DNA of 64,000 bases from NCBI GenBank assembly GCA_044892525.1, contig CM097885.1, forward strand, positions 9,612,001 to 9,676,000. The letters are read 5' to 3'. Of the stretch, positions 4,778-49,625 are shown one piece after another. Origin of the DNA: Schmidtea polychroa. Its lineage: Eukaryota. The notes under the pieces were generated by a model, which was given only the letters and a program-made list of their open reading frames with translations, searched no databases and had not been told where the DNA came from. Positions within the stretch are counted from its first letter, which is position 1. Every line of letters begins with the position of its first letter. A program made the translations under genes and the position numbers.

Positions 4778-5002
4778 TTGCATCCAGCGGTCGATAGTGA
4801 TGAAGGTTATGTGGGACAGGAGGAAACCTTCGTATAAGGGTGAATAAAAAGATAAAAACAAAAATCGGGACGTATATCCCAAACAAAAAAATTAAAGTAT
4901 TGTAAAAGTATTCAAGGGACTGTAACCCGAACTATTAAATTTTATATAAATCTATATGTATAAGTCGCACTATAGCGCACCATTAACTGTACATATTACA
5001 GA

Positions 5003-5713: not shown

Positions 5714-5754
5714 ATTAAGGGTCACTAAAACCAATTGTAAATAAACCATAATGA

Positions 5755-15495: not shown

Positions 15496-16199
15496 TTAGG
15501 GATAGGCCCTAGGTCTTAAAATAAACAATTACTTAAAATAGAATAAGGTTAAAAAGAATTACTTAAAATAAAGTTTAGATATATTTAAAATACTAATCTA
15601 TAAAATAATCTATAATTAGTAACAACTAGTGTTACTAACATTATAAATAGTAATTATAAAATTACTATTAATATATTTAGGACGCAAAAAATTTCAGACG
15701 AAGAAAATCGAAATTAAAACTAAACATAGTAGATAAGATAAATCGTGTGACAAATTAAAAAGTTATTAAAGAATCACTATGAGAATTAATAAAATATTTC
15801 GCGAGAAAAACAAATCAGTTTTTAATTAAAGGAGAAGATCTGATCAGAGATTGCAATCAGTATAGTCGATTTAAATTGCAGAGGAAAAAATTCGAACGAT
15901 AGAATTTAGACTACGATTGAAGGGAATAAACTGATTGTTCAGAAGACGATTATTCAACGTAAAATATTTATTGTTTAATTTTGGTTTGAAGGATAAATTA
16001 CTGTTTTTGTGTTAGTTGTTATTGGAAATTAATTAAGCGAGCACTAAGTACTATAAGCCACTTTCGTGTTCCCTGGGAGCCTCAAAATCATCCCTCTTGC
16101 TTAACCATTTCTTTTGTTGACTTTGCGGTCTGGTTTAAAGAAATTTAAAGTATTATAAAATCGAAATCCACAACGTTTAGAAGTAGAGAGAAGTGTGCT

Positions 16200-16910
16200 C
16201 CATGACTCATCGTTTTTTATCATTTTTTTGCACTACCCCCCCGATGACTCAGCGCAAAACAAAGACATATGACTCATCGATGACTCATCCATAGCAACAG
16301 CGGTAACTGGGTCAAGGTTATATGACTCACCCATAGCAACTGGGTCAAGGTCACATGACTCATCCATAGCAACCGCGGTAACTAGGTCAAGGTCATTCTA
16401 TTTTTAGTAACTAGGTCAAGGTCATTCTATTTTTAGTAACAATGTCACGTGACGTCATCGATGACTCATCAAGGTCATTCTATTTTTAGTAACTAGGTCA
16501 TGTGACGGCATCGATGACTCGTCAAGGTCATTCTATTTTTAGTAACAAGGTCATATGACTCATCATTTTTGGAACAAAGCCAACTGACTCATTATTAAAG
16601 TATGTATGACTCATCATTTTTTAAACAAAGATATATTTAATATTTAAATAAATACATTTAAACAAATATTTAAATAAATACATTTAAACAAATATTTAAA
16701 TAAATACATTTAAACAAAAATTTAAATAAATACATTTAAACAAATATTTAAATAAATACATTTAAACAAATATTTAAACAAAGACATTTAATCAAATATT
16801 TAAATACATTTAAACAAAGACATATAGACAAAGACTCATCGATGACTCATACTTTAGATAGGAGGTTTCTTTTTTTTGCATACTTCTCCCCCCCTTGTAT
16901 GACTCATCGA
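16200..16910. promoter_or_regulatory. Subterminal cluster of TGACTCA, TGACGTCA and TCAAGGTCA motifs (mirrored near 32160-32885)
   Basis: 12 TGACTCA counted by eye, plus CACGTGACGTCA and repeated GGTCAAGGTCA. Confidence 0.6.
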
Positions 16911-17045
16911 TGACTTTTTTGAACAAAGACCAATCATTTATTTTTAAATAAAAGACTCATCACACGACTCTAATTTTTAGAAGACTTCTTTTTTGGTAAA
17001 CCAAAATTTATTGTATGTCGCTACAGAATAATAATAATAATAACA

Positions 17046-17120
<75 letters not shown>

Positions 17121-17484
17121 TTAATAATAATAATAATAAAAACATACCCATTTCTTCATAAAAAAGTTTGTTTTCATAAAATTTATTTCATAAATCATAT
17201 AATTTGTTTTCATAAAAACTGGTTTCATAAAAAAAAAATAAAAATTAATCATAAAAAAATTTCATTATAAAAAAATTTAAATCATAAAAAAATAATAATT
17301 ACCTCATTTGAAAAAGATGTACAAAGTATCGATAACATCTAACCAATCAGAATTGGATATTATCGATGCTTTGTTCTCTGAATATGACTCATCGATGAGT
17401 CATTGTTACTAACTGAGTAATTTCTACTCACATAAAGACATGCAATACAAGTGCAATACAAGTGCATGAAATGTCTTTATGTAA

Positions 17485-17541
<57 letters not shown>

Positions 17542-17558
17542 GTAATAATAATAATTAA

Positions 17559-17607
<49 letters not shown>

Positions 17608-17781
17608 CTTAGAAAAATAGTAATCAACAAAATATATTTAAATTACAAATTTACAATTTTACATTGTCATTTTTACAAATGTCTGTTGCATTGATTGTTT
17701 CTTACAATCTTGGCTTCATTGACAACTATTAATAATAAAAAATAATAATTATAATAATAATTATTATTATTACCGAAATGA

Positions 17782-20700
17782 TCAGTAATCTTCTCCGTCA
17801 AAATTGTCGTCATCATCATATATAAAAGTGTCCCCTATCCGATAATGCCCATATGCCAAACTCTTGTTTTTCGATTTCCAATACCGCTTGTCATCTCTAT
17901 TTGTCAGCGCCTTCTTAATGTTTTTTATGCTGTACAATTGATGATTTTTGGATGCAATGCGGAATTGTGGCACAGAGTAAACCTTATTGTTAAAATAACA
18001 ATCACGATAGGAATTGTGATCTAAGCCAGTATCTTTCAACGTGACAGATTTTGCTTTAAGAGTTTCTTTATCACCTAATAAGCTGTAACACTTGGGACGA
18101 AGAAACACCCACTCCTTATATCTCAATCCTTTATTCTCGTCTTTGAATTTTCCAATGACGGAATCTAGTGCTCTACTATATAAAGGATGTTGTGGGTTAT
18201 AATTAGATGTGTCAAGCAAGGAGTCACGAATCATGGCAGGTAAGAGAATGTCAAGACTACAATTTTTAATTTCCAAAAAGAAAGAGTCTGTATCACTAGC
18301 TACTATATTAATTTCACAGTTAAACTCATCGCGATATTTTTGCAATTCATTATACTGCAACTGATACATTCTCAGTTTAGAAAGATCAAGTACAGTTTGC
18401 CCGATGTAGCTGGGCCTATCTAAACATACAGACTCTTTCATAAGCAAAACCGAAATCAAATCATCGTCTATCCTAGTAGATTTCTTAAATGCCGGTTTTG
18501 AGGCATATGTGATAAGTTTTTGTGCGGAAATGCACAGTCGTAAGTTAATACGTTTTTTCAAGTTCTCAACAGTTTTTCCATACAAACTGTTATTGAGCAA
18601 CTTGTAATAGTCTTTATCGAGCGGTGTTATGGATGCGGCTCGTAGTTGTGTGTTGGTATCTATGTATTTCTTGAAGACAGTGCTTTGTGTATACCTAATA
18701 GCCCTATGTACCTTGGTAACAACAACACCTGACTGAAGAAAGATTTGGAGAAGTCGCCAATGTAAAACATAGTGTGTTTTCGGATCGTGTGTAAGTAGCA
18801 ACTTCTCCACTTTAGAAAAAGGTGGGCACATCTTACCAGGAGCTACCGGAAAATCATCTAGTTTGTCATGGATAGATTTCGGTATTTTTAAATCTACTTC
18901 TATAGTATAGCCATAATCAAGTTGATTTAAATCTTCCGTTGTGCACTCAATTAATAATCTCTCTAAAGCAATGTCATCAGTCACCCATTCAAAACCACCG
19001 TCGGGAAGCTTTTGTGATAAAGCCCATCCATACAGGTTGTTGATGTCAATATACAACAACTCTGTATTTTCATCACTACTAACAAAATGTTTATTCACAA
19101 ACGTTATCCCACCTCTAATCCCACCTTCAAAGAAATTATACATTTCCATGTCGGTGAGAAGCTCAATCGGTTTATCAAGACTTAACAAAGCAGAACTCCA
19201 AGAAAGACTGGGGATACCTAGGAAATTCAAAGGCTCAAGCCTATTATGAGCAATACTCTTAGCTCGGAATTGCTGAAAAAAGTCAGCCAACAGAAATACA
19301 TCTAATTTCAAATAGACCATCATATAATCCAAAAGGGAATTACATGATGTCTCTTGCCAGATTAGTTTTGCTTTATTGTATTCATCATCGGATACATCAC
19401 TCCATTTAGGGGGCAATTCTAATGTAGAAATTAATACATCAAGGGAAGTTGCTACATCATAAGGGAAAATCCCTTTACTCTTAATAATAGACCCTCTAAA
19501 CTCAGATTCTGTCAAAGGTAATGTGTTAAGGGTTGAGACAGCATTTTTCAAAGACGAATTTACAAACTGACAAGAATCTATAAATTTCACAGTCAGGGAA
19601 TCAATATGCACAAAAAGAGATAAAAAGTTTTCACTTCTCACCGGTATACAAGAAATATCCCAGGACTTATATTTAGCCAAGCCAAATTTGAGGATATGAT
19701 GGAGATCATACCCTCTCAAATTATGAAAGACTACAGGTAGTGTGTGGTATATTTTCCTGGAAAGATTACAAGTGTTGCAAGCAGCACCAAGGAATTGACC
19801 GGTAAAGTGATCATGATCCCTGACTGGTTTAACTAATAATTTTTTACACAAATGACAGTTTGTGCTGTTATTAAAATTAATTTGGTCATTTTCTGTGAAT
19901 ATCATTTTCTTATTTTTATTTTTATAATAATAGGGAGTTACAATCTTTTTAGCGATATCATTAATTTCTTTTAAAAATTCGTCTATACAAGAAAGGCCTA
20001 TGAATGATTTATAAAATTTTGCGCCTGTATTATTATTTATACATAAAAGTCCAGCCGAAATGGGTAAATGTTTCTGATAATATTTAGAATCTTTAGGAAG
20101 GATTGCCTCAAAATCGGCATAAATAACAAAAGGAGGAGTAATCATTTTACTATAGTCTGTGAATTCTAATAATGGATCTTTTGGTAGTGTGTACATTGTG
20201 GTTCCTAATTGGTTTCGTTCACAAAGACCTTGATGTTTAATAAAACTATCTTCAAATCTGAATCCATTCAGACATCTAGGACACCACTTACAGTAAATAC
20301 GAACAGAACTTATTGATGAATTTCGGCAATTAAGAAAGATGTTTAAATCAGATATAGCGACGTAATGGTAGGTTTTCCGATTCTGTAATAATAACAAATT
20401 TAGACAAGTACCTCCTACTATTTTACTGCGATAAATTATATCTATAAAAGGATGTTTCATGATGGGACCCGAAATTAACCCAGTTTCGTCATAACTTAAA
20501 ACATTAATTGAATAACCTGGGTTTTGTCGTTCAAATTTTGAGATATTTGATAATTTCATTGGCATATCTGCCGGGTTATATATCAGATCTGAAAGGTTAT
20601 AAGAACTAGGCAGATGACGCAATTCATCAGGAGTACTATCATATTTTATAAGAGCCAAAACCGAGTAAAGGAAACAAAATTCGTCATCATTATTTACATT

Positions 20701-21684
20701 TATTATACATTTTTTCCTGATTAATGTTTTCGGGGTTTCAATATATTTACGACCACTCAACCTACTAATCTTTGAATATTTTGTCACAATAAAACTAATG
20801 TATTCTATTTTGTTAATGGTCCAATTACTTCCCTTTTCATTTATTTTACTAATTTTTTCATTTAAAAGAGAGATACCATCATCAATAAATGTGTCGCTCC
20901 ATACACGAGCAGAGTTTGAGATTATGAAAGACTGAAATTCATCATTTTTCTCAAACTCTACTTTAATACAAAATTGAATTTTTACTGATTTCATTTTATT
21001 TACAATTTCTAACAATTTTTCTATGAGAACGTCAGGAACAGAAAGAATTTTACAATTCAAGGAAGATATATCCAACTTAACTATTACATGGGAACTATTC
21101 AGGTCGGAAACTACGTCGACTATACCACTACCTACTTGGGGTACAACATCACTATTTTCAAATTCACTATTTTCACTATTTTCAAATTCACTATTTATAA
21201 CTTCACTATTTATAACTTCACTATTTACAACTTCACTATTTACAACTTCATTACTTACAACATCATCGTCGTCTTCACTAATGACTATTATTTCTTTCAT
21301 CTTTTTTGTGGGAATTTCTGTGGGAATTTCTAAATGTCTTTTATTACCTATTATTCCTATTAATCTATTGACTGTTTCCATTAATTGTCGATTTTGTATC
21401 AACATGGCATTAATCATACTTTTGTTGGTGGTCCTATTATTGATTTTTGTTGATGTTTCCATTAATTGTCGATTTTGTAAGTTTTCGGTGTTCCTATTAT
21501 TAGTTGATGATATATATTTTTGATACGCAATTTTGAAAACTGATTTTTTAGAAGGCATATATTGGGTTAAATGATTACGATGTTTATCATAAAATTCGGT
21601 ATATGTCGATGTTTCAAGAGTTTGGCATGTAGGACACAACAAGTATGTTACACTTTTATATTCATGACCATAATATTTTTCCAT
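17782..21684 (-). CDS. polB: Protein-primed family B DNA polymerase, copy 1
   Basis: YADFE, FHNLRGYD, DINNLYG, YKLLNNSLYGK, SDTDS and PKCYS motifs; endonuclease VII-like RDHDHFTG..AACNTCN. Confidence 0.97.
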   Translation of the reverse strand: MEKYYGHEYKSVTYLLCPTCQTLETSTYTEFYDKHRNHLTQYMPSKKSVFKIAYQKYISSTNNRNTENLQNRQLMETSTKINNRTTNKSMINAMLIQNRQLMETVNRLIGIIGNKRHLEIPTEIPTKKMKEIIVISEDDDDVVSNEVVNSEVVNSEVINSEVINSEFENSENSEFENSDVVPQVGSGIVDVVSDLNSSHVIVKLDISSLNCKILSVPDVLIEKLLEIVNKMKSVKIQFCIKVEFEKNDEFQSFIISNSARVWSDTFIDDGISLLNEKISKINEKGSNWTINKIEYISFIVTKYSKISRLSGRKYIETPKTLIRKKCIINVNNDDEFCFLYSVLALIKYDSTPDELRHLPSSYNLSDLIYNPADMPMKLSNISKFERQNPGYSINVLSYDETGLISGPIMKHPFIDIIYRSKIVGGTCLNLLLLQNRKTYHYVAISDLNIFLNCRNSSISSVRIYCKWCPRCLNGFRFEDSFIKHQGLCERNQLGTTMYTLPKDPLLEFTDYSKMITPPFVIYADFEAILPKDSKYYQKHLPISAGLLCINNNTGAKFYKSFIGLSCIDEFLKEINDIAKKIVTPYYYKNKNKKMIFTENDQINFNNSTNCHLCKKLLVKPVRDHDHFTGQFLGAACNTCNLSRKIYHTLPVVFHNLRGYDLHHILKFGLAKYKSWDISCIPVRSENFLSLFVHIDSLTVKFIDSCQFVNSSLKNAVSTLNTLPLTESEFRGSIIKSKGIFPYDVATSLDVLISTLELPPKWSDVSDDEYNKAKLIWQETSCNSLLDYMMVYLKLDVFLLADFFQQFRAKSIAHNRLEPLNFLGIPSLSWSSALLSLDKPIELLTDMEMYNFFEGGIRGGITFVNKHFVSSDENTELLYIDINNLYGWALSQKLPDGGFEWVTDDIALERLLIECTTEDLNQLDYGYTIEVDLKIPKSIHDKLDDFPVAPGKMCPPFSKVEKLLLTHDPKTHYVLHWRLLQIFLQSGVVVTKVHRAIRYTQSTVFKKYIDTNTQLRAASITPLDKDYYKLLNNSLYGKTVENLKKRINLRLCISAQKLITYASKPAFKKSTRIDDDLISVLLMKESVCLDRPSYIGQTVLDLSKLRMYQLQYNELQKYRDEFNCEINIVASDTDSFFLEIKNCSLDILLPAMIRDSLLDTSNYNPQHPLYSRALDSVIGKFKDENKGLRYKEWVFLRPKCYSLLGDKETLKAKSVTLKDTGLDHNSYRDCYFNNKVYSVPQFRIASKNHQLYSIKNIKKALTNRDDKRYWKSKNKSLAYGHYRIGDTFIYDDDDNFDGEDY

Positions 21685-21887
21685 AATATCGTCACAGTCA
21701 TGATGTGTAGCACTGTTACAAAAGGTTGGATATTTATAACCTATAAAATAAGTAAAATAGTATTATTATCAAAATTATTATTATTTATTATTACTATATA
21801 ATCTGAGTTTATACGACAAAATATTCTGTCCCTCCCTTGCTCATAAGTGTATTATATTTAAATTTATTTTAATTAAATAAAAACATA

Positions 21888-22145
21888 CAGTCTTTTCCAA
21901 ATTATGTTATTGATGATTTACTTGCTATTTTAATTAAAGTTGTTAAAGGTAAATTCCGTATAAGTACATCAAATAAAAAGATTTTGAACAGACACAAGAA
22001 ACCACTATTATCATTAGTAAATACTAAAAATAAAAAACGTATGCGTAAAATCATATATAAACAACAAGGAGGCTTCATTGCAGCCTTGATACCAATAGCA
22101 TTATCTTTATTGGGAGGGGCAGGTTTATTAAAATCATCATCATAA
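21888..22145 (+). pseudogene. 5'-truncated small Polinton virion protein (QxGG site followed by an amphipathic helix)
   Basis: Frame QSFPNYVIDDLL...KQQGGFIAALIPIALSLLGGAG; no ATG at its 5' end; the open frame begins at the inverted-arm boundary. Confidence 0.7.
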
Positions 22146-22148
22146 ACA

Positions 22149-22370
22149 ATGGGTCAATCATTACCAAATCTTAATTTGAATTTTAAATCTTCCTGTTGTA
22201 ATGGAGAAGATTTGGACGAACCCAGAAGACGAAGCCGGTTTCGGTGGAGTGGCAAAATTAAAGAAAAGAGTTCCGAATTCGAAAAAAGAAACCCAGAAGT
22301 GGTTATCAAATCAACTAGCGTACAGTTTGAACAAACCAATGCAGAAAAGATTTCCAACAAGAGCGTATAA
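22149..22370 (+). CDS. Candidate overprinted small lipidated protein
   Basis: MGQSL...KSSCC; ATG 4 nt after the upstream stop; overlaps the integrase in another frame. Confidence 0.4.
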   Translation: MGQSLPNLNLNFKSSCCNGEDLDEPRRRSRFRWSGKIKEKSSEFEKRNPEVVIKSTSVQFEQTNAEKISNKSV

Positions 22371-22588
22371 AACATATGGAATAAATGATTTGTGGCAAAT
22401 GGATTTGATGGAGATGATACCCTATTCAAAAATTAACAAGGGGTATAAATATATTTTAACGTGTATTAATGTATACAGCAGGTTTGCACGAGCAATACCA
22501 GTCAAGTCAAAATCTGCAGATGAAATGTCCAAAGCTATTAATATTTTATTTAAAAATGGACATCCTAACAATTTACAAACGGATTTAG

Positions 22589-22686
<98 letters not shown>

Positions 22687-23316
22687 TTAGGTAAAGAATT
22701 CTACAACAGTAAAGTTAAGCAAATCCTCGATAAACTGAAAATAAATCACTACTCGGTACATTCTCAATACAAAGCTGCTCATGTTGAAAGATTTAACAGA
22801 ACCTTGAGAGATAGATTAAAGAAATTGTTCGTGTATCAAGGTAATAAAAAATGGGTATTGGTTTTACCAAAAATTATAACCAGTTATAATAATTCATCAC
22901 ATCGAGGACTTAATGGATTGAGACCGGTTGATATCACATCAAAAACATTCTATTCTAAAAAATCTGAAAAAATTACAAAACCGAAATATAAAGTTGGTGA
23001 CCATGTTAGAATTAGTAAAATTAGTGCATCACCATTTATTAAAAATTTCGATACAAATTGGAGTGATGAAGTCTTTGTAATTTCGAAAATAAATACTAGC
23101 CAGAACCCTGTGATGTATGTCATCAGAGATTCTGAAAATAACATTGTACATGGGAAATTTTATGAGCAAGAATTACAAGTCATTCCTCCCCCAAAAGTAT
23201 TTAGAATTCAAAAAATATTGAAAACTAAAATGGTGGGTAAGGATAAACAATACTATGTCAAATGGCATGGATATAAAAACCCATCATGGATATCGTCTCG
23301 AGACCTCGTAAAATGA
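22201..23316 (+). CDS. int: Retroviral-like integrase with C-terminal chromodomain; intron 22589-22690
   Basis: LWQMDL, QTDLG|KEF, VERFNRTL, YYVKWHGY..SWI; GT-(ATT)n-AG intron. Confidence 0.95.
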
Positions 23317-24332
23317 ATTTTTACATTATTTTGCCAAGTAATAGTTGTCCGAATATACATCCAGAAAACACTGCCAGTAAATTTATGGTCAATCTCCAAA
23401 ATCCGATTTATTTAAATGGTAATTGGGAAGTTGCTCTCCTTGACTTTACATTTGTGTACAATCTCTTTCCAATTTATAGTAAAGCTAAAATTGAATATAA
23501 AAAGAAAGAGACGCAAAGAAATATCTCTTTTGTCATTGATAATGTAGAAGATCGAATTGATATTGGTCCTTCCGATTCAATTGTCAAAATGTATATTGAT
23601 CGTCAATATTTAATAGTTGAATGTAAATATCATCCCTTTACTATAAAATTTGATAGTTTAGCAATGGCAAAACGATTGGAATTAACAAGTCAGAGTAATA
23701 GAAATCATACTAATATATTCCAAGTACTACGGCCGAGATTTACCAAAGTAGCAGCGCGATATGAGACAATTTCAATGAAAGTTGAGTTTGAGGGTGAAAC
23801 TGAAAATACATATACGTTTAATGAGAATTTATACATTTCTAAATTGGAGGAATTACAATCATATTTAATTCAGAATTGTGGATCAATATTTAAATCATTG
23901 GAATTAGTAGACAATACTTTGTTCAAATTCAGTTTGAATACTGATATTACTGAAATTACTTTTGATAAAAATCTAATAAAAACATTAGGATTATCAAAAG
24001 GAACATATATTCAAGATGGAAAATTAAATGTAGGTATGAATAAACCGAAAATAATTAAACTTCATCATCAAATGTTTCTCTATACTAATATTATTGAACC
24101 CATAATTGTTGGTGATTCTTTGGTTCCTCTATTGAAATCTATTTGGGTTGAGAAACATGAACAAGATGATGTTGTACAAATCAATGTAGAAAATCCCATG
24201 TATTTGCCTGTTTCAACATCCTGTATAAACAATATAGAAATAAATATAAGAGATGATTCTGGTCAATTAATCGAATTTGCAAAAGATTCAAAAACTCATT
24301 TGACACTACATTTTCGTAAAGTAGATGGCTAA
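23313..24332 (+). CDS. Minor capsid protein (penton)
   Basis: MNFYIILPSNS...NTASKF..L.NPI.L.G.WEVAL and YTNIIEPIIVGDSLVPLL..P.YLPV motifs typical of Polinton pentons. Confidence 0.85.
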   Translation: MNFYIILPSNSCPNIHPENTASKFMVNLQNPIYLNGNWEVALLDFTFVYNLFPIYSKAKIEYKKKETQRNISFVIDNVEDRIDIGPSDSIVKMYIDRQYLIVECKYHPFTIKFDSLAMAKRLELTSQSNRNHTNIFQVLRPRFTKVAARYETISMKVEFEGETENTYTFNENLYISKLEELQSYLIQNCGSIFKSLELVDNTLFKFSLNTDITEITFDKNLIKTLGLSKGTYIQDGKLNVGMNKPKIIKLHHQMFLYTNIIEPIIVGDSLVPLLKSIWVEKHEQDDVVQINVENPMYLPVSTSCINNIEINIRDDSGQLIEFAKDSKTHLTLHFRKVDG

Positions 24333-24714
24333 TTCTGATATTATTAGTATGTATAGTGGTAGCCAAAGTGGTGGCGAATTACCATATTTTGTTGGTAAAC
24401 AGTACGGAAGTGGGTGGTTGAGAACAATTGGTAGATTTGCGTTACCAATTCTTAAACGTATTGGTAATTTCGGTATGAAAACTGCAAAAGATGTAATTAT
24501 GAATGACAAGAAAATATTACCATCGTTGAAATCAAATGCAATTGCTGAAATAAGTAAAGTAATACCTGGTATGTTTAAAACTGAACCAGCACTGGTACCA
24601 GTAAAACGTAAATTTGAAAGTGAAATTAAAACAAGTATGGGAACTAAACGCAAGAGAGGGAGAAGGCATATAAACAAACGAATGAAAGGACACGGAACCA
24701 TATTTGAAGAATGA
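24325..24714 (+). CDS. Basic Polinton core-like protein with protease-site-like motifs
   Basis: QSGG, QYGSG followed by WLRTIGRFALPILK, and a basic C-terminus. Confidence 0.75.
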   Translation: MANSDIISMYSGSQSGGELPYFVGKQYGSGWLRTIGRFALPILKRIGNFGMKTAKDVIMNDKKILPSLKSNAIAEISKVIPGMFKTEPALVPVKRKFESEIKTSMGTKRKRGRRHINKRMKGHGTIFEE

Positions 24715-25937
24715 TTTGCGGTAAATCTGAATTATGTCTATTTGATCGACCATCGCCTCAGGCGGTTATCGAATATGGAGCATTTGAAGATGTATTTCCA
24801 ATGAATTCTATTACCGATAGTAGAAATGATGTGGAATTTTACATTAATGGTTCTCAAACAGAATATTTAGATTTGAACGATACTTTGTTGTATGTTCAAA
24901 TAAAAGTTGTAGATAAAGACAATAAAGCATTAGCTGCAGATGATACAACTGAACCTAATAATTTCTTGTTTCATACTCTCTTTAAAGATGTTATTCTTGG
25001 ATTTAATAACATTAAAATTGAGGGTGGAAACAATACATATGCTCACAAGGCAATTATCGAAACTATTTTAAATTATAATAATGATACTAAAGATACTTGT
25101 CTAACTCCAATGGGATATGGTGTATCTGATGATCGAAAAAAGTGGATTAAAGGCTCAAAAACTTTCAACATGTGTTCATCTCTACAATTGGATTTTATGG
25201 ATCAACCCAAATATTTACTACCAGGTGTTAATGTACATATGAGATTGAAAAGATCTGATTCTGCATTGGCATTATCAACTGGAGTTGCAGGTGCAGCACC
25301 TAAATTAATATTACTCGATGCCAAATTAATGGTTCGAAGAGTTCGATGTGAATCGTCTGTATTAGCGGGACATCAAATTGGATTAAATACCAAACATGCA
25401 ATTTATCCGATAAAAACAAAAGAAATTGTATCATTTGCAATTGCTAAAGGAGCATCATCTTTTTACAAGGAGCAAATATTTGGAGATCGAAGAATGCCTA
25501 ATTTTATCCTTGTAACTTTTCAAAGTGAAGCTCAATATAACGGATCTTATGATACATCTTCATCAAAATTCAAACACTTTAGTGTAACTTCTCTTTCATT
25601 ATCGAAAAATACTGATTATCGAGAAACTTATACTCAAGATTTTGATAATGATAATTATTGTACTTCATATATGCAAAGTCTTGTCAGAAATTTAGGATAT
25701 TTGGATAAAAATCTTAATTGTGGTATAAGTCTGGAAGAATTCAAAACATTCTATCCATTTTTCACATTTGTTCTGGCTCCAGATTTTGATTTAAATCAAA
25801 GTCAATTACCTCAAAGTGGCAATTTGAGATTGGATATTAAGTTCGGTAAAGCAACTACTGAACCAGTCCATGTAATAATCTATGGGGTTTTTGAAAATGA
25901 AATCCAAATTACTGCAAATCGAACTGTACTAGTATAA
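24711..25937 (+). CDS. Major capsid protein (double jelly-roll)
   Basis: KSELCLF..P..Q, YLDLNDTLLYV, NNFLFHTLF, QPKYLLPGV, GNLRLDIKF. Confidence 0.9.
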   Translation: MICGKSELCLFDRPSPQAVIEYGAFEDVFPMNSITDSRNDVEFYINGSQTEYLDLNDTLLYVQIKVVDKDNKALAADDTTEPNNFLFHTLFKDVILGFNNIKIEGGNNTYAHKAIIETILNYNNDTKDTCLTPMGYGVSDDRKKWIKGSKTFNMCSSLQLDFMDQPKYLLPGVNVHMRLKRSDSALALSTGVAGAAPKLILLDAKLMVRRVRCESSVLAGHQIGLNTKHAIYPIKTKEIVSFAIAKGASSFYKEQIFGDRRMPNFILVTFQSEAQYNGSYDTSSSKFKHFSVTSLSLSKNTDYRETYTQDFDNDNYCTSYMQSLVRNLGYLDKNLNCGISLEEFKTFYPFFTFVLAPDFDLNQSQLPQSGNLRLDIKFGKATTEPVHVIIYGVFENEIQITANRTVLV

Positions 25938-25967
25938 ATGAAGAAATTTAAAAGATTAAAGTTTTTT

Positions 25968-26352
25968 ATGGAGTAAGATTTTTATTTTATAATTTAACTT
26001 ATTGATTAGTTCTATTCAGGTGTCTCGAATTGGTACTCAATTATTGGGAAACGAATTTCTTGGAGTTTATCCACTGGATAAAATTCCATATTTGAGAAAT
26101 AATCAAGCCATAATCGTCAATACTCATACATCTAGTTTAGGAGGTGAACATTGGATTGCTGTATATGTGAAACCAAACCGAGTATATGCATTCGATCCCT
26201 TTGGATATTATTACCCAAATTTATTAATTAGTAAATTGCAAACTATTGGTAAACCTATTGTATATAATCGAACTCGGTATCAAAATCCATTTTCAATTAC
26301 TTGTGGCCAACATTGCCTTGCATGGTTGTTATCAATGTATAATTTTGTTTAA
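25968..26352 (+). CDS. pro: Adenain-like cysteine protease; 37-bp intron 25973-26009 (alternative ATG at 25938)
   Basis: Spliced start MDSIQV; IVNT..GEHWIA, FDPFG and Q...S.TCGQHC. Confidence 0.9.
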
Positions 26353-26374
26353 TAAATGTATTAAATGTCACAAG

Positions 26375-26458
<84 letters not shown>

Positions 26459-27148
26459 ATTATAATTATTAATTAATTTTATTATTCATATCAACAAATT
26501 TCATGCACTTGTATTGCATGTCTTTATGTGAGTAACAAAGACATTATTTGTTACTATGTGAGTCATCGATGACTCATTCTTTTTTAAACAAAGACATGAA
26601 TATGTGTGCGTTAATTTTTTCTATCCTATCTGCATTTTGATTGGATAAACGTTACATATATAATCTATATTTTTGTAATTCTTTTTCATTTATTCAAAAT
26701 GCAAAATATTTCAAATGAAATCAAGGAAATGATTCGAAGAAATCGTATGGGTAATTTTTTTTTTAATATGTTTTTATTTTTATTTATATTTTAGTCTACA
26801 TTAATGAAAATAATGTTTCGGGAACTTATAATTTTTCAGCAAGTAATGGAATTGAAAATAATGTTTCCGGAAATTATGGTAAATTTAATTTTTAAATTAT
26901 TATTATTATTATTATGATTTTTTAGTAAATAATGCTGTACACAATCTCGCGTGCAAGAAACCTAAATGTAGGTTTTTTAAAATTTTAAAATTAATATGCT
27001 TTAAATTATTATGATTTTTAAATTAATTTACTTTAAATTATTATGATTTTTTAAATTAATATGAAGTCAATTTTGTTATAAAGAAAATGTATGAAGTCAA
27101 TTTTGTTATGAAACAAATAATGAAATTAATTTTTATAAAGAAAATGAA

Positions 27149-30100
27149 TATGTTTTTATTTAATTAAAATAAATTTAAATATAATACACTTATGAGCAAG
27201 GGAGGGACAGAATATTTTGTCGTATAAACTCAGATTATATAGTAATAATAAATAATAATAATTTTGATAATAATAATAATAATAATTTTGATAATAATAC
27301 TATTTTACTTATTTTATAGGTTATAAATATCCAACCTTTTGTAACAGTGCTACACATCATGACTGTGACGATATTATGGAAAAATATTATGGTCATGAAT
27401 ATAAAAGTGTAACATACTTGTTATGTCCTACATGCCAAACTCTTGAAACATCGACATATACCGAATTTTATGATAAACATCGTAATCATTTAACCCAATA
27501 TATGCCTTCTAAAAAATCAGTTTTCAAAATTGCGTATCAAAAATATATATCATCAACTAATAATAGGAACACCGAAAACTTACAAAATCGACAATTAATG
27601 GAAACATCAACAAAAATCAATAATAGGACCACCAACAAAAGTATGATTAATGCCATGTTGATACAAAATCGACAATTAATGGAAACAGTCAATAGATTAA
27701 TAGGAATAATAGATAATAAAAGACATTTAGAAATTCCCACAGAAATTCCCACAAAAAAGATGAAAGAAATAATAGTCATTAGTGAAGACGACGATGATGT
27801 TGTAAGTAATGAAGTTGTAAATAGTGAAGTTGTAAATAGTGAAGTTATAAATAGTGAAGTTATAAATAGTGAATTTGAAAATAGTGAAAATAGTGAATTT
27901 GAAAATAGTGATGTTGTACCCCAAGTAGGTAGTGGTATAGTCGACGTAGTTTCCGACCTGAATAGTTCCCATGTAATAGTTAAGTTGGATATATCTTCCT
28001 TGAATTGTAAAATTCTTTCTGTTCCTGACGTTCTCATAGAAAAATTGTTAGAAATTGTAAATAAAATGAAATCAGTAAAAATTCAATTTTGTATTAAAGT
28101 AGAGTTTGAGAAAAATGATGAATTTCAGTCTTTCATAATCTCAAACTCTGCTCGTGTATGGAGCGACACATTTATTGATGATGGTATCTCTCTTTTAAAT
28201 GAAAAAATTAGTAAAATAAATGAAAAGGGAAGTAATTGGACCATTAACAAAATAGAATACATTAGTTTTATTGTGACAAAATATTCAAAGATTAGTAGGT
28301 TGAGTGGTCGTAAATATATTGAAACCCCGAAAACATTAATCAGGAAAAAATGTATAATAAATGTAAATAATGATGACGAATTTTGTTTCCTTTACTCGGT
28401 TTTGGCTCTTATAAAATATGATAGTACTCCTGATGAATTGCGTCATCTGCCTAGTTCTTATAACCTTTCAGATCTGATATATAACCCGGCAGATATGCCA
28501 ATGAAATTATCAAATATCTCAAAATTTGAACGACAAAACCCAGGTTATTCAATTAATGTTTTAAGTTATGACGAAACTGGGTTAATTTCGGGTCCCATCA
28601 TGAAACATCCTTTTATAGATATAATTTATCGCAGTAAAATAGTAGGAGGTACTTGTCTAAATTTGTTATTATTACAGAATCGGAAAACCTACCATTACGT
28701 CGCTATATCTGATTTAAACATCTTTCTTAATTGCCGAAATTCATCAATAAGTTCTGTTCGTATTTACTGTAAGTGGTGTCCTAGATGTCTGAATGGATTC
28801 AGATTTGAAGATAGTTTTATTAAACATCAAGGTCTTTGTGAACGAAACCAATTAGGAACCACAATGTACACACTACCAAAAGATCCATTATTAGAATTCA
28901 CAGACTATAGTAAAATGATTACTCCTCCTTTTGTTATTTATGCCGATTTTGAGGCAATCCTTCCTAAAGATTCTAAATATTATCAGAAACATTTACCCAT
29001 TTCGGCTGGACTTTTATGTATAAATAATAATACAGGCGCAAAATTTTATAAATCATTCATAGGCCTTTCTTGTATAGACGAATTTTTAAAAGAAATTAAT
29101 GATATCGCTAAAAAGATTGTAACTCCCTATTATTATAAAAATAAAAATAAGAAAATGATATTCACAGAAAATGACCAAATTAATTTTAATAACAGCACAA
29201 ACTGTCATTTGTGTAAAAAATTATTAGTTAAACCAGTCAGGGATCATGATCACTTTACCGGTCAATTCCTTGGTGCTGCTTGCAACACTTGTAATCTTTC
29301 CAGGAAAATATACCACACACTACCTGTAGTCTTTCATAATTTGAGAGGGTATGATCTCCATCATATCCTCAAATTTGGCTTGGCTAAATATAAGTCCTGG
29401 CATATTTCTTGTATACCGGTGAGAAGTGAAAACTTTTTATCTCTTTTTGTGCATATTGATTCCCTGACTGTGAAATTTATAGATTCTTGTCAGTTTGTAA
29501 ATTCGTCTTTGAAAAATGCTGTCTCAACCCTTAACACATTACCTTTGACAGAATCTGAGTTTAGAGGGTCTATTATTAAGAGTAAAGGGATTTTCCCTTA
29601 TGATGTAGCAACTTCCCTTGATGTATTAATTTCTACATTAGAATTGCCCCCTAAATGGAGTGATGTATCCGATGATGAATACAATAAAGCAAAACTAATC
29701 TGGCAAGAGACATCATGTAATTCCCTTTTGGATTATATGATGGTCTATTTGAAATTAGATGTATTTCTGTTGGCTGACTTTTTTCAGCAATTCCGAGCTA
29801 AGAGTATTGCTCATAATAGGCTTGAGCCTTTGAATTTCCTAGGTATCCCCAGTCTTTCTTGGAGTTCTGCTTTGTTAAGTCTTGATAAACCGATTGAGCT
29901 TCTCACCGACATGGAAATGTATAATTTCTTTGAAGGTGGGATTAGAGGTGGGATAACGTTTGTGAATAAACATTTTGTTAGTAGTGATGAAAATACAGAG
30001 TTGTTGTATATTGACATCAACAACCTGTATGGATGGGCTTTATCACAAAAGCTTCCCGACGGTGGTTTTGAATGGGTGACTGATGACATTGCTTTAGAGA

Positions 30101-31452
30101 GATTATTAATTGAGTGCACAACGGAAGATTTAAATCAACTTGATTATGGCTATACTATAGAAGTAGATTTAAAAATACCGAAATCTATCCATGACAAACT
30201 AGATGATTTTCCGGTAGCTCCTGGTAAGATGTGCCCACCTTTTTCTAAAGTGGAGAAGTTGCTACTTACACACGATCCGAAAACACACTATGTTTTACAT
30301 TGGCGACTTCTCCAAATCTTTCTTCAGTCAGGTGTTGTTGTTACCAAGGTACATAGGGCTATTAGGTATACACAAAGCACTGTCTTCAAGAAATACATAG
30401 ATACCAACACACAACTACGAGCCGCATCCATAACACCGCTCGATAAAGACTATTACAAGTTGCTCAATAACAGTTTGTATGGAAAAACTGTTGAGAACTT
30501 GAAAAAACGTATTAACTTACGACTGTGCATTTCCGCACAAAAACTTATCACATATGCCTCAAAACCGGCATTTAAGAAATCTACTAGGATAGACGATGAT
30601 TTGATTTCGGTTTTGCTTATGAAAGAGTCTGTATGTTTAGATAGGCCCAGCTACATCGGGCAAACTGTACTTGATCTTTCTAAACTGAGAATGTATCAGT
30701 TGCAGTATAATGAATTGCAAAAATATCGCGATGAGTTTAACTGTGAAATTAATATAGTAGCTAGTGATACAGACTCTTTCTTTTTGGAAATTAAAAATTG
30801 TAGTCTTGACATTCTCTTACCTGCCATGATTCGTGACTCCTTGCTTGACACATCTAATTATAACCCACAACATCCTTTATATAGTAGAGCACTAGATTCC
30901 GTCATTGGAAAATTCAAAGACGAGAATAAAGGATTGAGATATAAGGAGTGGGTGTTTCTTCGTCCCAAGTGTTACAGCTTATTAGGTGATAAAGAAACTC
31001 TTAAAGCAAAATCTGTCACGTTGAAAGATACTGGCTTAGATCACAATTCCTATCGTGATTGTTATTTTAACAATAAGGTTTACTCTGTGCCACAATTCCG
31101 CATTGCATCCAAAAATCATCAATTGTACAGCATAAAAAACATTAAGAAGGCGCTGACAAATAGAGATGACAAGCGGTATTGGAAATCGAAAAACAAGAGT
31201 TTGGCATATGGGCATTATCGGATAGGGGACACTTTTATATATGATGATGACGACAATTTTGACGGAGAAGATTACTGATCATTTCGGTAATAATAATAAT
31301 TATTATTATAATTATTATTTTTTATTATTAATAGTTGTCAATGAAGCCAAGATTGTAAGAAACAATCAATGCAACAGACATTTGTAAAAATGACAATGTA
31401 AAATTGTAAATTTGTAATTTAAATATATTTTGTTGATTACTATTTTTCTAAG

Positions 31453-31501
<49 letters not shown>

Positions 31502-31518
31502 TTAATTATTATTATTAC

Positions 31519-31572
<54 letters not shown>

Positions 31573-31965
31573 TTACATAAAGACATTTCATGCACTTGTA
31601 TTGCACTTGTATTGCATGTCTTTATGTGAGTAGAAATTACTCAGTTAGTAACAATGACTCATCGATGAGTCATATTCAGAGAACAAAGCATCGATAATAT
31701 CCAATTCTGATTGGTTAGATGTTATCGATACTTTGTACATCTTTTTCAAATGAGGTAATTATTATTTTTTTATGATTTAAATTTTTTTATAATGAAATTT
31801 TTTTATGATTAATTTTTATTTTTTTTTTATGAAACCAGTTTTTATGAAAACAAATTATATGATTTATGAAATAAATTTTATGAAAACAAACTTTTTTATG
31901 AAGAAATGGGTATGTTTTTATTATTATTATTATTAATATTATTATTATTATTATTATTATTATTC

Positions 31966-32035
<70 letters not shown>

Positions 32036-32901
32036 TGTTATTATTATTATTATTCTGTAGCGACATACAATAAATTTTGGTTTACCAAAAAAGAAGTCTT
32101 CTAAAAATTAGAGTCGTGTGATGAGTCTTTCTTTTAAAAATAAATGATTGGTCTTTGTTCAAAAAAGTCATCGATGAGTCATACAAGTTGGGGGGGAGTA
32201 TGCAAAAAAAAGAAACCCCCTATCTAAACTATGAGTCATCGATGAGTCTTTGTCTATATGTCTTTGTTTAAATGTATTTAAATATTTGATTAAATGTCTT
32301 TGTTTAAATATTTGTTTAAATGTATTTATTTAAATATTTGTTTAAATGTATTTATTTAAATTTTTGTTTAAATGTATTTATTTAAATATTTGTTTAAATG
32401 TATTTATTTAAATATTTGTTTAAATGTATTTATTTAAATATTAAATATGTCTTTGTTTAAAAAATGATGAGTCATACATACTTTAATAATGAGTCAGTTG
32501 GCTTTGTTCCAAAAATGATGAGTCATATGACCTTGTTACTAAAAATAGAATGACCTTGACGAGTCATCGATGCCGTCACATGACCTAGTTACTAAAAATA
32601 GAATGACCTTGATGAGTCATCGATGACGTCACGTGACATTGTTACTAAAAATAGAATGACCTTGACCTAGTTACTAAAAATAGAATGACCTTGACCTAGT
32701 TACCGCGGTTGCTATGGATGAGTCATGTGACCTTGACCCAGTTGCTATGGGTGAGTCATATAACCTTGACCCAGTTACCACTGTTGCTATGGACGAGTCA
32801 TCGATGAGTCATATGTCTTTGTTTTGCGCTGAGTCATGTGGGGGGGTAGTGCAAAAAAAAAGACAAAAAACGATGAGTCATGGAGCACACTTCTCTCTAC
32901 T
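27149..32901. repeat. Right giant inverted arm of the Polinton (includes pPolB)
   Basis: Near-exact reverse complement of 16182-21887. Confidence 0.95.
27376..31278 (+). CDS. polB: Protein-primed family B DNA polymerase, copy 2 (frame also open from an acceptor near 27320)
   Basis: Same motifs as copy 1; two amino-acid differences seen (IIGNK/IIDNK, SWDIS/SWHIS). Confidence 0.97.
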   Translation: MEKYYGHEYKSVTYLLCPTCQTLETSTYTEFYDKHRNHLTQYMPSKKSVFKIAYQKYISSTNNRNTENLQNRQLMETSTKINNRTTNKSMINAMLIQNRQLMETVNRLIGIIDNKRHLEIPTEIPTKKMKEIIVISEDDDDVVSNEVVNSEVVNSEVINSEVINSEFENSENSEFENSDVVPQVGSGIVDVVSDLNSSHVIVKLDISSLNCKILSVPDVLIEKLLEIVNKMKSVKIQFCIKVEFEKNDEFQSFIISNSARVWSDTFIDDGISLLNEKISKINEKGSNWTINKIEYISFIVTKYSKISRLSGRKYIETPKTLIRKKCIINVNNDDEFCFLYSVLALIKYDSTPDELRHLPSSYNLSDLIYNPADMPMKLSNISKFERQNPGYSINVLSYDETGLISGPIMKHPFIDIIYRSKIVGGTCLNLLLLQNRKTYHYVAISDLNIFLNCRNSSISSVRIYCKWCPRCLNGFRFEDSFIKHQGLCERNQLGTTMYTLPKDPLLEFTDYSKMITPPFVIYADFEAILPKDSKYYQKHLPISAGLLCINNNTGAKFYKSFIGLSCIDEFLKEINDIAKKIVTPYYYKNKNKKMIFTENDQINFNNSTNCHLCKKLLVKPVRDHDHFTGQFLGAACNTCNLSRKIYHTLPVVFHNLRGYDLHHILKFGLAKYKSWHISCIPVRSENFLSLFVHIDSLTVKFIDSCQFVNSSLKNAVSTLNTLPLTESEFRGSIIKSKGIFPYDVATSLDVLISTLELPPKWSDVSDDEYNKAKLIWQETSCNSLLDYMMVYLKLDVFLLADFFQQFRAKSIAHNRLEPLNFLGIPSLSWSSALLSLDKPIELLTDMEMYNFFEGGIRGGITFVNKHFVSSDENTELLYIDINNLYGWALSQKLPDGGFEWVTDDIALERLLIECTTEDLNQLDYGYTIEVDLKIPKSIHDKLDDFPVAPGKMCPPFSKVEKLLLTHDPKTHYVLHWRLLQIFLQSGVVVTKVHRAIRYTQSTVFKKYIDTNTQLRAASITPLDKDYYKLLNNSLYGKTVENLKKRINLRLCISAQKLITYASKPAFKKSTRIDDDLISVLLMKESVCLDRPSYIGQTVLDLSKLRMYQLQYNELQKYRDEFNCEINIVASDTDSFFLEIKNCSLDILLPAMIRDSLLDTSNYNPQHPLYSRALDSVIGKFKDENKGLRYKEWVFLRPKCYSLLGDKETLKAKSVTLKDTGLDHNSYRDCYFNNKVYSVPQFRIASKNHQLYSIKNIKKALTNRDDKRYWKSKNKSLAYGHYRIGDTFIYDDDDNFDGEDY

Positions 32902-32956
32902 TTTAGATTATCTGGTCATACACGGCCTGACTATATTCTGTGCAAATAGAAAGATA

Positions 32957-35081
32957 CCGTAATTTCCGGTCTATAAGTCGCGGTTTTTTTCAGACGCTGA
33001 CGGTGCTGCGACTTATATAAAGGAGCGACTTATATAATAAGTTTAATCACGTGCCGTTTCTATAATAAATCTAAATGTAATCAACAATTTGTGACTGTTC
33101 TGTCTTTGATGAACTGATAATTGATGCCGTGGTTATCAAAGGCCCTTTTTGTAATATGATACAATCATAAACCATCACCATCATTATAATATATCTAAGA
33201 CGCCATATAGCCTATTTCGTAAACCAAGCTTACAGGATGTCTAGGCTAGGCGAACTGCCGCCATGTTGGCGTGTCAGTTTAACTGCCGATCTGATTGGTC
33301 ATTTCGGACCCTGGATCCGAAATTTGAGAGCCCATCAAACAAATGTCAGCTTTAATCACCAGATGGCAGTGTATATAAGACCGCTGTAATAGATTTCCTG
33401 TCAAAACAATTTAATTTTTCAAATTAAAATATACCGAAAGTTTAGTGCAAAATGAGTTCCAACAAAACAAGGAAATCGTACACTGCCGAGTTTAAGCTGC
33501 AAACTATCAAATTTGCTGAGGAAAACGGCAATCGAGCGACTAAGCGGCGATTTAATATTAGTGAAAAACTAGTTCGAGATTGGCAAAAATCAAAAGATGC
33601 GCTGTTGCTGACAAAAAGAACCAAGCGGGCGAATCGAGGTCATAAAGCAAGATGGCCAGGACTGGAAAATCAGCTTTCTAAGTTTATTGTGGAGCAGCGA
33701 GCTCAAGGTCGCGGAATATCAACCGTCCAAGTTCGTCTTAAGGCCAAAGAAATAGCGAATGATCTGGGAATTGATGAATTCATTGGTGGACCATCTTGGT
33801 GTTTTCGTTTCATGAAGCGCCAGCAGCTCTGCATCAGATCAAGAACGACCATGTGTCAACAACTGTCTGCTGACTACATCGAAAAAATCCGGAATTTTCG
33901 TGAATTCATTTATTCAAAAGTCGCGAAATATGAAATCATTCCAGATCATATTATCAACATGGATGAAGTTCCACTCACCTTCGATATTCCTCTGGGTCGA
34001 ACTCTCAATAACAAAGGTGAGAAAACGATCAACATAAGAACAACTGGCCACGAGAAATCGCAGTTTACGGTCGTGCTGTCATGCTGGGGTGATGGAAGGA
34101 AGCTTCCTCCAATGATAATCTTCAAAAGGAAAACCATGCCAAAAGAGGCATTTCCCAACAACGTGATCATTCAAACCAACGCAAAGGGATGGATGAATGA
34201 AGAAATGATGAACATATGGTTGGAGAGATGTTTCAAAAAGAGGCCTGACGGATTCTTCAAAACTAAAAAGGCATTGCTCGTAATGGACAGTATGCGAGCT
34301 CACATCACAGAGAACATAAAAACGAAAGTTAAAGGCAACAACTCGATTCCTGTCATTATACCAGGTGGTCTGACGAAGGTGATACAACCTCTGGATATTT
34401 CTGTCAACCGAAGTTTCAAGGTCCATCTGCGTCGTTTGTGGGAAAGATGGATGACCAGCGGTGAACATAGCTTTACGGCAACAGGTCGCATGCGTCATGC
34501 CACTTTTGCGGAAGTGGCCAAATGGGTGGTCGAGGCATGGGATAAATTGAATCCGGCGATTATCACCAGTGGATTCAAGAAAGCGGAAATCTTACTGGCA
34601 GACAATGATGACAACGACGACTCTGATAGCGATGATGATGATGACAACTATGAACTGACTGTACCAGATGAAATTGCTCAATTATTTGAAAGCGATACTG
34701 AAGATGAAGGCTTTAATGGATTTAATGGATTTGCAGACTCTGATTTTTATTGATAAATTTAACTTCATTAATCGACATTTATAACTTAGGCATTTCGTTT
34801 TATTGATATAAATAATTTCTCTATAAATTAAAAAGAAATATTCCACGTTATTAAATACTTGCGCTAAATGATTTTTGTTCTCACCTCTTCTCTTTAGTGT
34901 CTTTAATTAAACTTGGCGACCACCACCGAACAAAGTAAACATTTCCGCAGAGGCATGCTTATTACTGTATAAGTGCGACTTAAATAACGGAGCGACTTAT
35001 ATATTAATTTTTCCAAAATTTTAGCCATTTTTTACAATTGCGACTTATACACAGGAGCGACTTATTACCCGGAAATTACGG
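32957..35081 (+). mobile_element. pogo-family DNA transposon, apparently intact
   Basis: TIRs CCGTAATTTCCGG / CCGGAAATTACGG, TA target duplication, subterminal GCGACTTATA repeats. Confidence 0.95.
33452..34753 (+). CDS. pogo/POGK-like transposase (N-terminal HTH, CENP-B HTH, DDE_1)
   Basis: RKSYTAEFKL, GPSWCFRFMKR, NMDEVP, LVMDS, QPLDISVNRSFK, acidic tail. Confidence 0.95.
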   Translation: MSSNKTRKSYTAEFKLQTIKFAEENGNRATKRRFNISEKLVRDWQKSKDALLLTKRTKRANRGHKARWPGLENQLSKFIVEQRAQGRGISTVQVRLKAKEIANDLGIDEFIGGPSWCFRFMKRQQLCIRSRTTMCQQLSADYIEKIRNFREFIYSKVAKYEIIPDHIINMDEVPLTFDIPLGRTLNNKGEKTINIRTTGHEKSQFTVVLSCWGDGRKLPPMIIFKRKTMPKEAFPNNVIIQTNAKGWMNEEMMNIWLERCFKKRPDGFFKTKKALLVMDSMRAHITENIKTKVKGNNSIPVIIPGGLTKVIQPLDISVNRSFKVHLRRLWERWMTSGEHSFTATGRMRHATFAEVAKWVVEAWDKLNPAIITSGFKKAEILLADNDDNDDSDSDDDDDNYELTVPDEIAQLFESDTEDEGFNGFNGFADSDFY

Positions 35082-42660: not shown

Positions 42661-42722
<62 letters not shown>

Positions 42723-46036: not shown

Positions 46037-46054
46037 TTATTATATTTTAATTAT

Positions 46055-49567: not shown

Positions 49568-49625
<58 letters not shown>

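What the first reader, a model, noticed from the sequence alone, without database searches (positions are those of the whole stretch)
16182..32901. Polinton with 5.7-kb inverted arms and two intact pPolB genes
Seen: both arms include a whole 1300-aa pPolB, with few differences (two amino acids, microsatellite lengths, scattered SNPs), and a perfect 6-bp TSD flanks the whole. Established: Polintons normally have TIRs of hundreds of bp to about 1 kb and a single pPolB. Inference: TIR expansion by template switching during strand-displacement replication; the intact TSD is consistent with the rearranged genome having integrated as a unit.
Basis: partly seen in the sequence, partly recalled or inferred. 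Interest (0 to 1): 0.75.

Follow-up and report, generated by a model that had tools for sequence, protein, structure and literature searches.

The report
Rearranged Polinton with mirrored polymerase arm
A virus-like jumping element in an animal genome lost its left end, including its DNA-packaging gene, and now carries a mirror copy of its right end there, so the second polymerase gene is a headless by-product of a rearrangement rather than a new two-polymerase design.

Summary
The 5.7-kb arms (98.8% identical), the two 1300-codon pPolB frames and the 6-bp TSD are in the sequence. The arms are not equivalent. The right pPolB keeps three small leader exons in the centre; the left copy starts inside the last intron and has none. 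The left junction cuts 25 codons off a core-protein gene, and no ATPase remains. 14 of 17 arm substitutions lie in the outer 769 bp, so the left tip looks like an original left TIR with a young copy of the right end attached. Both arms share four changes against contigs of four public runs, all at conserved pPolB columns (one is silent against one run), so decay preceded duplication. Those runs show another sequence upstream of the cut gene and roughly 1:1 pPolB-to-centre depth. Best reading: a defective provirus whose TIR was extended by homology-primed repair, probably in place; the TSD cannot tell. No listed contig bridges the junction, so read support is missing. Gene-bearing Polinton TIRs (hexon, adenain) and TIR recruitment in Galileo are in print; pPolB in both arms was not found. 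The scan earlier noted spliced pPolB leaders and gene-less fold-back Polintons in this genome, not this structure.

The parts
16176..16181 (+). Left target-site duplication TTTAGA
16182..16950 (.). Outer left arm: probable original left TIR (terminal AGTAGAGAG, internal tandem repeats); holds 14 of 17 arm substitutions and two 1-bp indels. Its true inner limit is not fixed (between about 16950 and 17780)
   Evidence: identity as native left TIR is inferred
16951..21887 (-). Inner left arm: young inverted copy of the right end; 3 substitutions, two 24-bp and one 3-bp repeat-length differences
17782..21740 (-).
   Evidence: X6 contig stops aligning exactly at 21740
21887..21888 (.). Derived junction, 0 bp microhomology, no inserted bases: joins pPolB intron 3 to codon 26 of the core-protein gene
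   Evidence: (X1 record 5)
21888..22145 (+). 5'-truncated small basic core-type gene with a ..QQGGF.. cleavage-like site ('pX-like' is a recalled label; Pfam Adeno_PX only E 0.054, below cut-off)
   Evidence: both of 2 homologs (106 aa) have 25 more N-terminal residues
22149..22370 (+). 73-codon ORF beginning MGQS, overlapping the integrase start; no family hit
22201..23316 (+). rve integrase with chromodomain; the poly-Ile run is a 102-nt GT..AG intron (22589-22690) filled by an ATT repeat, not a lesion
   Evidence: intron inferred from sequence
23286..24332 (+). Probable minor capsid protein (penton)
   Evidence: (unnamed clusters, mostly Preplasmiviricota; recognition below the tool's threshold) plus gene order; inferred
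24325..24714 (+). 129-aa basic protein with GG/GxG sites (core-protein-like; recalled label)
   Evidence: no family hit
24711..25937 (+). Major capsid protein (double jelly roll)
   Evidence: PF21738 on 15-30% of members of the best clusters; 165 homologs; no Pfam or PDB sequence hit
25993..26352 (+). Adenain-type protease (start codon or first exon not resolved)
   Evidence: Peptidase_C5 E 1.4e-7; same position after MCP in 3 of 3 related loci
26699..26967 (+). Three phase-1 leader exons of pPolB: 26699-26750, 26795-26878, 26926-26967
   Evidence: all open, GT..AG introns of 44 and 47 nt, total frame 1378 codons; splicing inferred
26968..27319 (+). pPolB intron 3 (352 nt); the inner end of the right arm (27148/27149) lies inside it and is native sequence
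27320..31278 (+). pPolB main exon of the complete copy; exonuclease and polymerase motifs present
27149..32901 (+). Right arm: native right end, template of the duplication
32902..32907 (+). Right target-site duplication TTTAGA

Best explanation
An ordinary single-pPolB Polinton (TIR, left block with ATPase, core gene, INT, penton, core gene, MCP, protease, spliced pPolB, TIR) inserted here and made the TSD. It then sat long enough to gain a few damaging pPolB changes. A break or deletion removed its left block. The surviving left TIR paired with the right TIR and primed synthesis inward for about 4.9 kb (homology-primed gap repair or conversion). The new strand let go inside pPolB intron 3 and was joined bluntly to codon 26 of the core gene. 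The result is a defective provirus with one complete pPolB, one leaderless mirror copy and no ATPase. Shown: anatomy, which junction is derived, loss of ATPase, uneven arm divergence, shared changes. Inferred: splicing, the order of events, the repair pathway, and that it happened at this locus.
For: The left junction cuts a gene: homologs have 25 more residues, and a contig of run X1 aligns from exactly 21888 with 114 other letters upstream (record 5). The right junction lies inside an intron of a complete gene model. An X6 contig (RNA is the tool's guess) stops aligning at the predicted acceptor 21740 with 281 letters left over. 14 of 17 substitutions sit in the outer 769 bp; 9 events against about 2 expected from ageing alone, P about 4e-4. 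X1 contigs covering 17839-21785 differ from the left arm at 6 sites: 4 shared by both arms, 2 private to the left arm; the right arm has 1 private change. The 4 shared sites change an amino acid against the letter of X1, X6 and X7 and fall in 4 of only 13 columns, of 785, where the window residue is in at most 1 of 59 homologs against a 70% majority. pPolB and centre depths are about 1:1 in all four runs (weak, the tool warns this is no copy number). No Walker A in six frames, no ATPase family in 45 of 45 frames of 50 aa or more, and only 349 unannotated bases in the centre. The same mechanism was proposed for Galileo (PMC3573991).
Against: No listed piece (32 shown, 2455 not shown) bridges 21887/21888, so the junction rests on one assembly. 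The native left TIR was never seen, so the outer-arm reading is inferred. At one of the four shared sites (19627) the main letter of run X2 is silent against the window (worked out by hand), so that change may belong to a spread lineage. Four of four amino-acid changes is also expected 41% of the time under neutrality: it fits decay but the counts are tiny. The length of 16,720 bp is close to the mean of intact vertebrate Mavericks (16,862 bp; PMC8097293), as a packaged defective genome might be. All evidence also fits a rearrangement at another locus followed by a move here.
Confidence: 0.55

Rival explanations
1. Mobile defective subfamily. The same rearrangement happened in a donor copy or in a replicating linear genome (copy-back plus TIR exchange). 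The product, with two good ends, INT and capsid genes, was then moved here as a unit with ATPase supplied in trans. This is.
For: Perfect termini and TSD. Normal Polinton length (PMC8097293). Butterfly polintons with gene-bearing 2-kb TIRs are mobile (10.1101/2025.02.07.637071). Unchecked notes report high-copy gene-less fold-back Polintons in this genome. One shared change may be lineage-wide (X2).
Against: The window's letters at 18530, 18731, 19637 and 21637 were in no contig of the four runs, and depth is about 1:1 (contigs drop rare variants). A pure copy-back predicts identical tips, which is not seen; it needs a second event.
Confidence: 0.25
2. Assembly or library artefact (fold-back or chimeric reads).
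Against: Each arm has private substitutions relative to the run contigs (2 left, 1 right), plus repeat-length differences and 14 tip differences. The flanks are unique, not mirrored, and carry a TSD. The junction has 0 bp of homology, so a repeat-collapse misjoin is unlikely. An artefact would need two switches.
Confidence: 0.1
3. Two-allele origin. Recombination between the TIRs inverted the interior on one chromosome; a later illegitimate exchange between the inverted and the normal allele joined the left half of one to the right half of the other. Also in place, but by another route.
For: Predicts the same pattern: native left tip, near-identical inner arms, shared older changes, intact TSD.
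Against: Needs two events and an inverted allele that was not observed; the data here cannot separate it from gap repair.
Confidence: 0.07
4. A normal, autonomous family architecture with two working pPolB genes in 5.7-kb TIRs.
For: Both main exons are open and keep all catalytic motifs. Gene-bearing TIRs exist in active polintons.
Against: Left copy lacks leader exons; core gene is cut; no ATPase; relatives show another sequence upstream of 21888 and about 1:1 depth.
Confidence: 0.03

Closest known systems
Animal Polintons/Mavericks (adintoviruses; PMC8097293, PMC10748475, PMC8502044, passages read)
   Same: pPolB, rve integrase, protease, capsid genes, AG-rich termini, 6-bp TSD, 16.7 kb.
   Different: Arms of 5.7 kb against 46-1447 bp (134 intact vertebrate elements) or 100-1500 bp; pPolB main exon doubled; ATPase absent; genes spliced (the vertebrate ones are described as intronless).
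Pieris/Euchloe polintons with about 2-kb gene-bearing TIRs (10.1101/2025.02.07.637071, section 12 read)
   Same: Core genes lie inside the TIRs, giving two copies per insertion.
   Different: There hexon and adenain are doubled in a multi-copy, horizontally moving family described as full-length. Here the pPolB main exon is doubled, the arm is nearly three times longer, the element is defective and no second copy is known.
Galileo TIR extension by recruitment of internal sequence (PMC3573991, PMC4168063, passages read)
   Same: One TIR is repaired from the other and the tract runs on into internal, even coding, sequence; the longest TIRs occur in non-autonomous copies.
   Different: P-superfamily cut-and-paste element; TIRs up to about 1.3 kb and recruited ORF pieces of 69 to over 500 bp, against 4.9 kb here.
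Copy-back defective viral genomes; terminal duplication-deletions of poxviruses and linear replicons (recalled; two searches gave no DNA-virus paper that I read)
   Same: One end is replaced by an inverted copy of the other.
   Different: Those give arms identical to the tip at birth; here the tips are the most divergent part.

Membership tests
Polinton/Maverick (derived from) | Protein-primed family B polymerase | tested here: met
   987 homologs, many with PF03175; motifs present; the window protein itself gave only Endonuclease_7 in Pfam
Polinton/Maverick (derived from) | Retrovirus-like integrase | tested here: met
   rve E 5.7e-7, just under the curated cut-off, plus chromodomain
Polinton/Maverick (derived from) | TIRs with AG-type termini and 6-bp TSD | tested here: met
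Polinton/Maverick (derived from) | Major and minor capsid proteins | tested here: inconclusive
   MCP supported by DJR-like clusters; penton by position and unnamed viral clusters only; no fold was computed
Polinton/Maverick (derived from) | Adenain-type protease | tested here: met
   Peptidase_C5; start of gene unresolved
Intact, autonomous Polinton | Packaging ATPase | tested here: not met
   No Walker A; 0 of 45 frames hit an ATPase family; no coding room. No profile of Polinton ATPases was run, so this rests on motif, Pfam and space
Intact, autonomous Polinton | All core genes whole | tested here: not met
   Core gene lacks 25 N-terminal codons; left pPolB lacks its leader
Mobile Polinton family with gene-bearing TIRs | Several insertions share the structure with different TSDs | not testable with these tools
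   No genome held; only short contigs; TIR pattern absent from viral contigs
Copy-back genome integrated whole | Arms equally diverged from tip to junction | tested here: not met
   14 of 17 substitutions in the outer 13.5% of the arm

The most novel reading that the evidence does not exclude
The element is a moving, helper-dependent Polinton whose arms have swallowed the polymerase exon: an early stage on the way from autonomous Polintons to the gene-less giant fold-back parasites that unchecked notes report in this and another genome. Stepwise TIR extension would then be the route by which such parasites are born.
Probability: 0.2. Interest if true: 0.55.

Novelty: new variant of a known kind. 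Interest (0 to 1): 0.3.

Why it matters
As it stands, it is an unusually long and well-resolved case of TIR extension in a Polinton, with the order of events readable from the arms. It warns that a TSD and two long open frames do not show an autonomous two-polymerase element, and that the first ATG of these pPolBs is not the gene start. Screens that cap TIR length (2,500 bp in PMC11131425) would miss such elements, so their frequency is unknown. It would matter more if the junction recurs at other loci, because it would link Polintons to their fold-back parasites.

Tried and rejected
No whole genome is held, so other copies could not be counted. The search for related loci with the MCP: nothing in viral contigs; 3 short loci of 1.5-2.1 kb in metagenome contigs, too short for gene order beyond MCP-protease. 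The 31-nt TIR pattern: 0 matches in viral contigs. No RNA holder listed; X6 as RNA is only a guess. All runs were contigs; only 17790-22580 was laid, so the tips, flanks and right junction were not tested with reads. The X7 joint 21776-21916 crosses the junction but has a 21-letter AT-rich side: set aside as spurious. Other low-depth joints in X2 and X7 were read as deletion variants of other copies and not used. Rfam: 0 hits in the window and 0 at E up to 5 in 49350-50100. PDB sequence search: 0 hits for pPolB and MCP. Poly-Ile in INT as a lesion: rejected, it lies in a GT..AG intron. Replacement leader for the left pPolB: two chance antisense donors with upstream ATG frames (22164, 21921), no evidence they are used. 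The 81% match of 26377-26577 to 17384-17592 as a buried old TIR: rejected as unproven; it may be a shared 3' or promoter region. Old palindrome homogenised by conversion: rejected, because pPolB differs from the run contigs at only 6 sites in 3.9 kb. Ten paper searches listed no Polinton with pPolB in both arms; the library lacks most subscription papers and Repbase, the Jurka 2007 review cited for Polinton repeat expansion was not read, and no supplements were seen (those of the Pannagram preprint could list similar elements). Earlier-finding look-ups by sequence, near place and relatives were blank.
Full report
Observation. Self-BLAST gives one 5758-column inverted match, 16181-21887 against 32902-27149, at 98.8%. 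The element runs 16182-32901 (16,720 bp), with a 5261-bp centre, termini AGTAGAGAGAAG and its reverse complement, and TTTAGA on both sides (chance about 7e-4). The flanks are not mirrored. The two 1300-codon frames differ at 3 bases and 2 residues. So the core observation holds. The host is an AT-rich eukaryote; an earlier unchecked note suggests a flatworm, which I did not test.

Anatomy. The centre holds, all on the + strand: a small basic core-type gene, a 73-codon ORF, an rve integrase with chromodomain, a probable penton, a 129-aa basic protein, a major capsid protein and an adenain protease. The poly-Ile run in the integrase is a 102-nt GT..AG intron. After the protease come three small exons (26699-26750, 26795-26878, 26926-26967), each open and phase 1, and a 352-nt intron ending at 27319; with the main exon they give a 1378-codon frame. 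Earlier notes on sister families in this genome gave me this lead. Only 349 bases of the centre are unannotated. No Walker A motif exists in any frame, and none of 45 frames of 50 aa or more hits an ATPase family. The ATPase is a core Polinton gene (PMC10748475, passages), so the element is defective.

Which junction is native. The inner end of the right arm (27148/27149) lies inside pPolB intron 3, so it is continuous native sequence. The inner end of the left arm joins that intron to the core gene at 21888. Both homologs found are 106 aa and have 25 residues before the point where the window's copy begins. In run X1 a 435-letter contig aligns from exactly 21888, with 114 other letters before it. 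The overlap at the junction is 0 bp. The left pPolB is therefore the main exon alone, without leader or promoter. An X6 contig stops aligning at 21740, the mirror of the acceptor at 27320, with 281 letters left; the three exons account for 178 and the rest could be 5' leader. This fits splicing, but X6 as RNA is a guess and I could not see those letters.

Order of events. Of 17 substitutions between the arms, 14 lie in the outer 769 bp. Merged into events this is 9 of 12; P is 5e-6 with the boundary set at the first microsatellite and 1e-3 at the pPolB stop, and 1 of 20000 in a scan permutation. Four runs from four studies were laid on 17790-22580 as contigs (one may be the window's own sample). 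X1 contigs cover 17839-21785 and differ from the left arm at 6 sites. Two are private to the left arm; the right arm has one private change; four (18530, 18731, 19627, 19637) are shared by both arms. Those four alter a residue against X1, X6 and X7, and they make up 4 of the 13 columns, of 785 examined, where the window's residue is nearly absent from 59 homologs (the 59 best of 120 listed). Against this: at 19627 the main letter of X2 is silent relative to the window (by hand), and 9 of those 13 columns are simply family traits. Read together, the provirus decayed first, was duplicated later (4 changes in one lineage before, 3 over two arms after), and the left tip has a separate origin, most simply the native left TIR: 9 events against about 2 expected from ageing. 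Depth over pPolB and over the core gene is about equal in each run (X1 14 and 15; X2 about 350-700 and 403; X7 about 2900-3500 and 3535; X6 15-41 and 26-45), not 2:1. The tool warns that these depths are no copy numbers, so this is weak support that the family has one pPolB.

Mechanism. The simplest account is gap repair primed in the TIR: loss of the left block, pairing of the left TIR with the right TIR, about 4.9 kb of copying, then blunt joining to the core gene. PMC3573991 (passages) proposes this for Galileo, and PMC4168063 (passages) reports ORF pieces recruited into TIRs. The TSD survives such an event and cannot show that the rearranged form inserted as a unit. A plain copy-back molecule would have identical tips. 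What I cannot exclude is that the event took place at a donor locus or in a replicating genome and the product then moved here with help in trans. The normal length and intact ends allow that.

Reality. None of the 32 listed pieces (2455 were not shown) bridges 21887/21888, and contigs drop rare variants, so the junction is neither confirmed nor refuted by reads. Private changes on both arms, divergent tips, unique flanks with a TSD and a homology-free junction argue against an artefact; I leave it 10%.

Comparison. Intact vertebrate Mavericks have TIRs of 46-1447 bp and lengths of 12.7-24.6 kb (PMC8097293, passages). A preprint describes butterfly polintons whose 2-kb TIRs hold hexon and adenain, two copies per insertion, in a mobile family (10.1101/2025.02.07.637071, section 12). 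Gene-bearing Polinton TIRs are therefore known. A doubled pPolB was not found in ten searches. I also saw passages of 10.1101/2024.01.15.575659, PMC11131425 and PMC8502044; none describes it. The element derives from a Polinton and fails the test for an intact one.

Verdict. Real at the sequence level, probably real in the animal, defective, and most likely a one-off TIR extension after insertion (0.55; 0.62 with the two-allele route). New variant of a known kind; interest 0.3. It would rise to about 0.55 if the junction recurs with other TSDs (probability 0.2).

Noticed in passing
window 39798-48204: A second, decayed Polinton pPolB (55% identical over 846 aa, minus strand, in pieces) whose 5' 1.1 kb (42833-43942) recurs inverted at 47070-48180 at 99.2%, around inverted arrays of a 144-bp satellite (44556-45463, 46052-47091). 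A second young inverted duplication nearby, of opposite geometry; no TSD or termini looked for in depth.
   Followed up: partly
window 21795-21832, 27204-27241, 49459-49496, 49937-49955, 56686-56712, 58584-58614, 59567-59597: A recurring motif of about 40-110 nt (..CGACAAAATATTCTGTCCC..) in pPolB intron 3 and five other places; very high depth in all four runs; no Rfam match. Unexplained: regulatory element or small repeat.
   Followed up: partly
window 58295-59887: A 1.6-kb element with 486-bp inverted arms at 98%; one arm ends in a 136-bp piece 97% identical to pPolB sequence at 42278-42413. Possibly a small fold-back derivative.
   Followed up: no
window 22589-22690: Integrase intron made almost wholly of an ATT repeat, in frame and stop-free, so it mimics a 32-Ile insertion.
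   Followed up: yes
window 26377-26597: Region after the protease is 81% like the region after the pPolB stop (17384-17592), with ATT repeat and the palindrome-like ATGAGTCATCGATGACTCAT also common in the TIR.
   Followed up: partly
window 22128-22130: In run X7 a contig at depth 2283 carries 28 other letters here, while X1 matches the window: the family has at least two forms at the end of the core gene.
   Followed up: no
window 6-6324: A run of intronless plus-strand ORFs with strong A and G skew, including a RING plus MATH (TRAF-like) gene at 2199-3578; may be cargo of another large element.
   Followed up: no
window 50495-54977: A 1143-aa ORF joining EAP30, proteasome, ubiquitin and DUF1759 (BEL/Pao gag-like, recalled) matches, with an 857-bp direct repeat at 99.9% (50502-51358, 54415-55271): perhaps an LTR element whose repeats hold captured host gene pieces.
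   Followed up: no
window 33452-34753: Intact-looking pogo/Tigger-type transposase (DDE_1, HTH_Tnp_Tc5) 550 bp right of the element.
   Followed up: no
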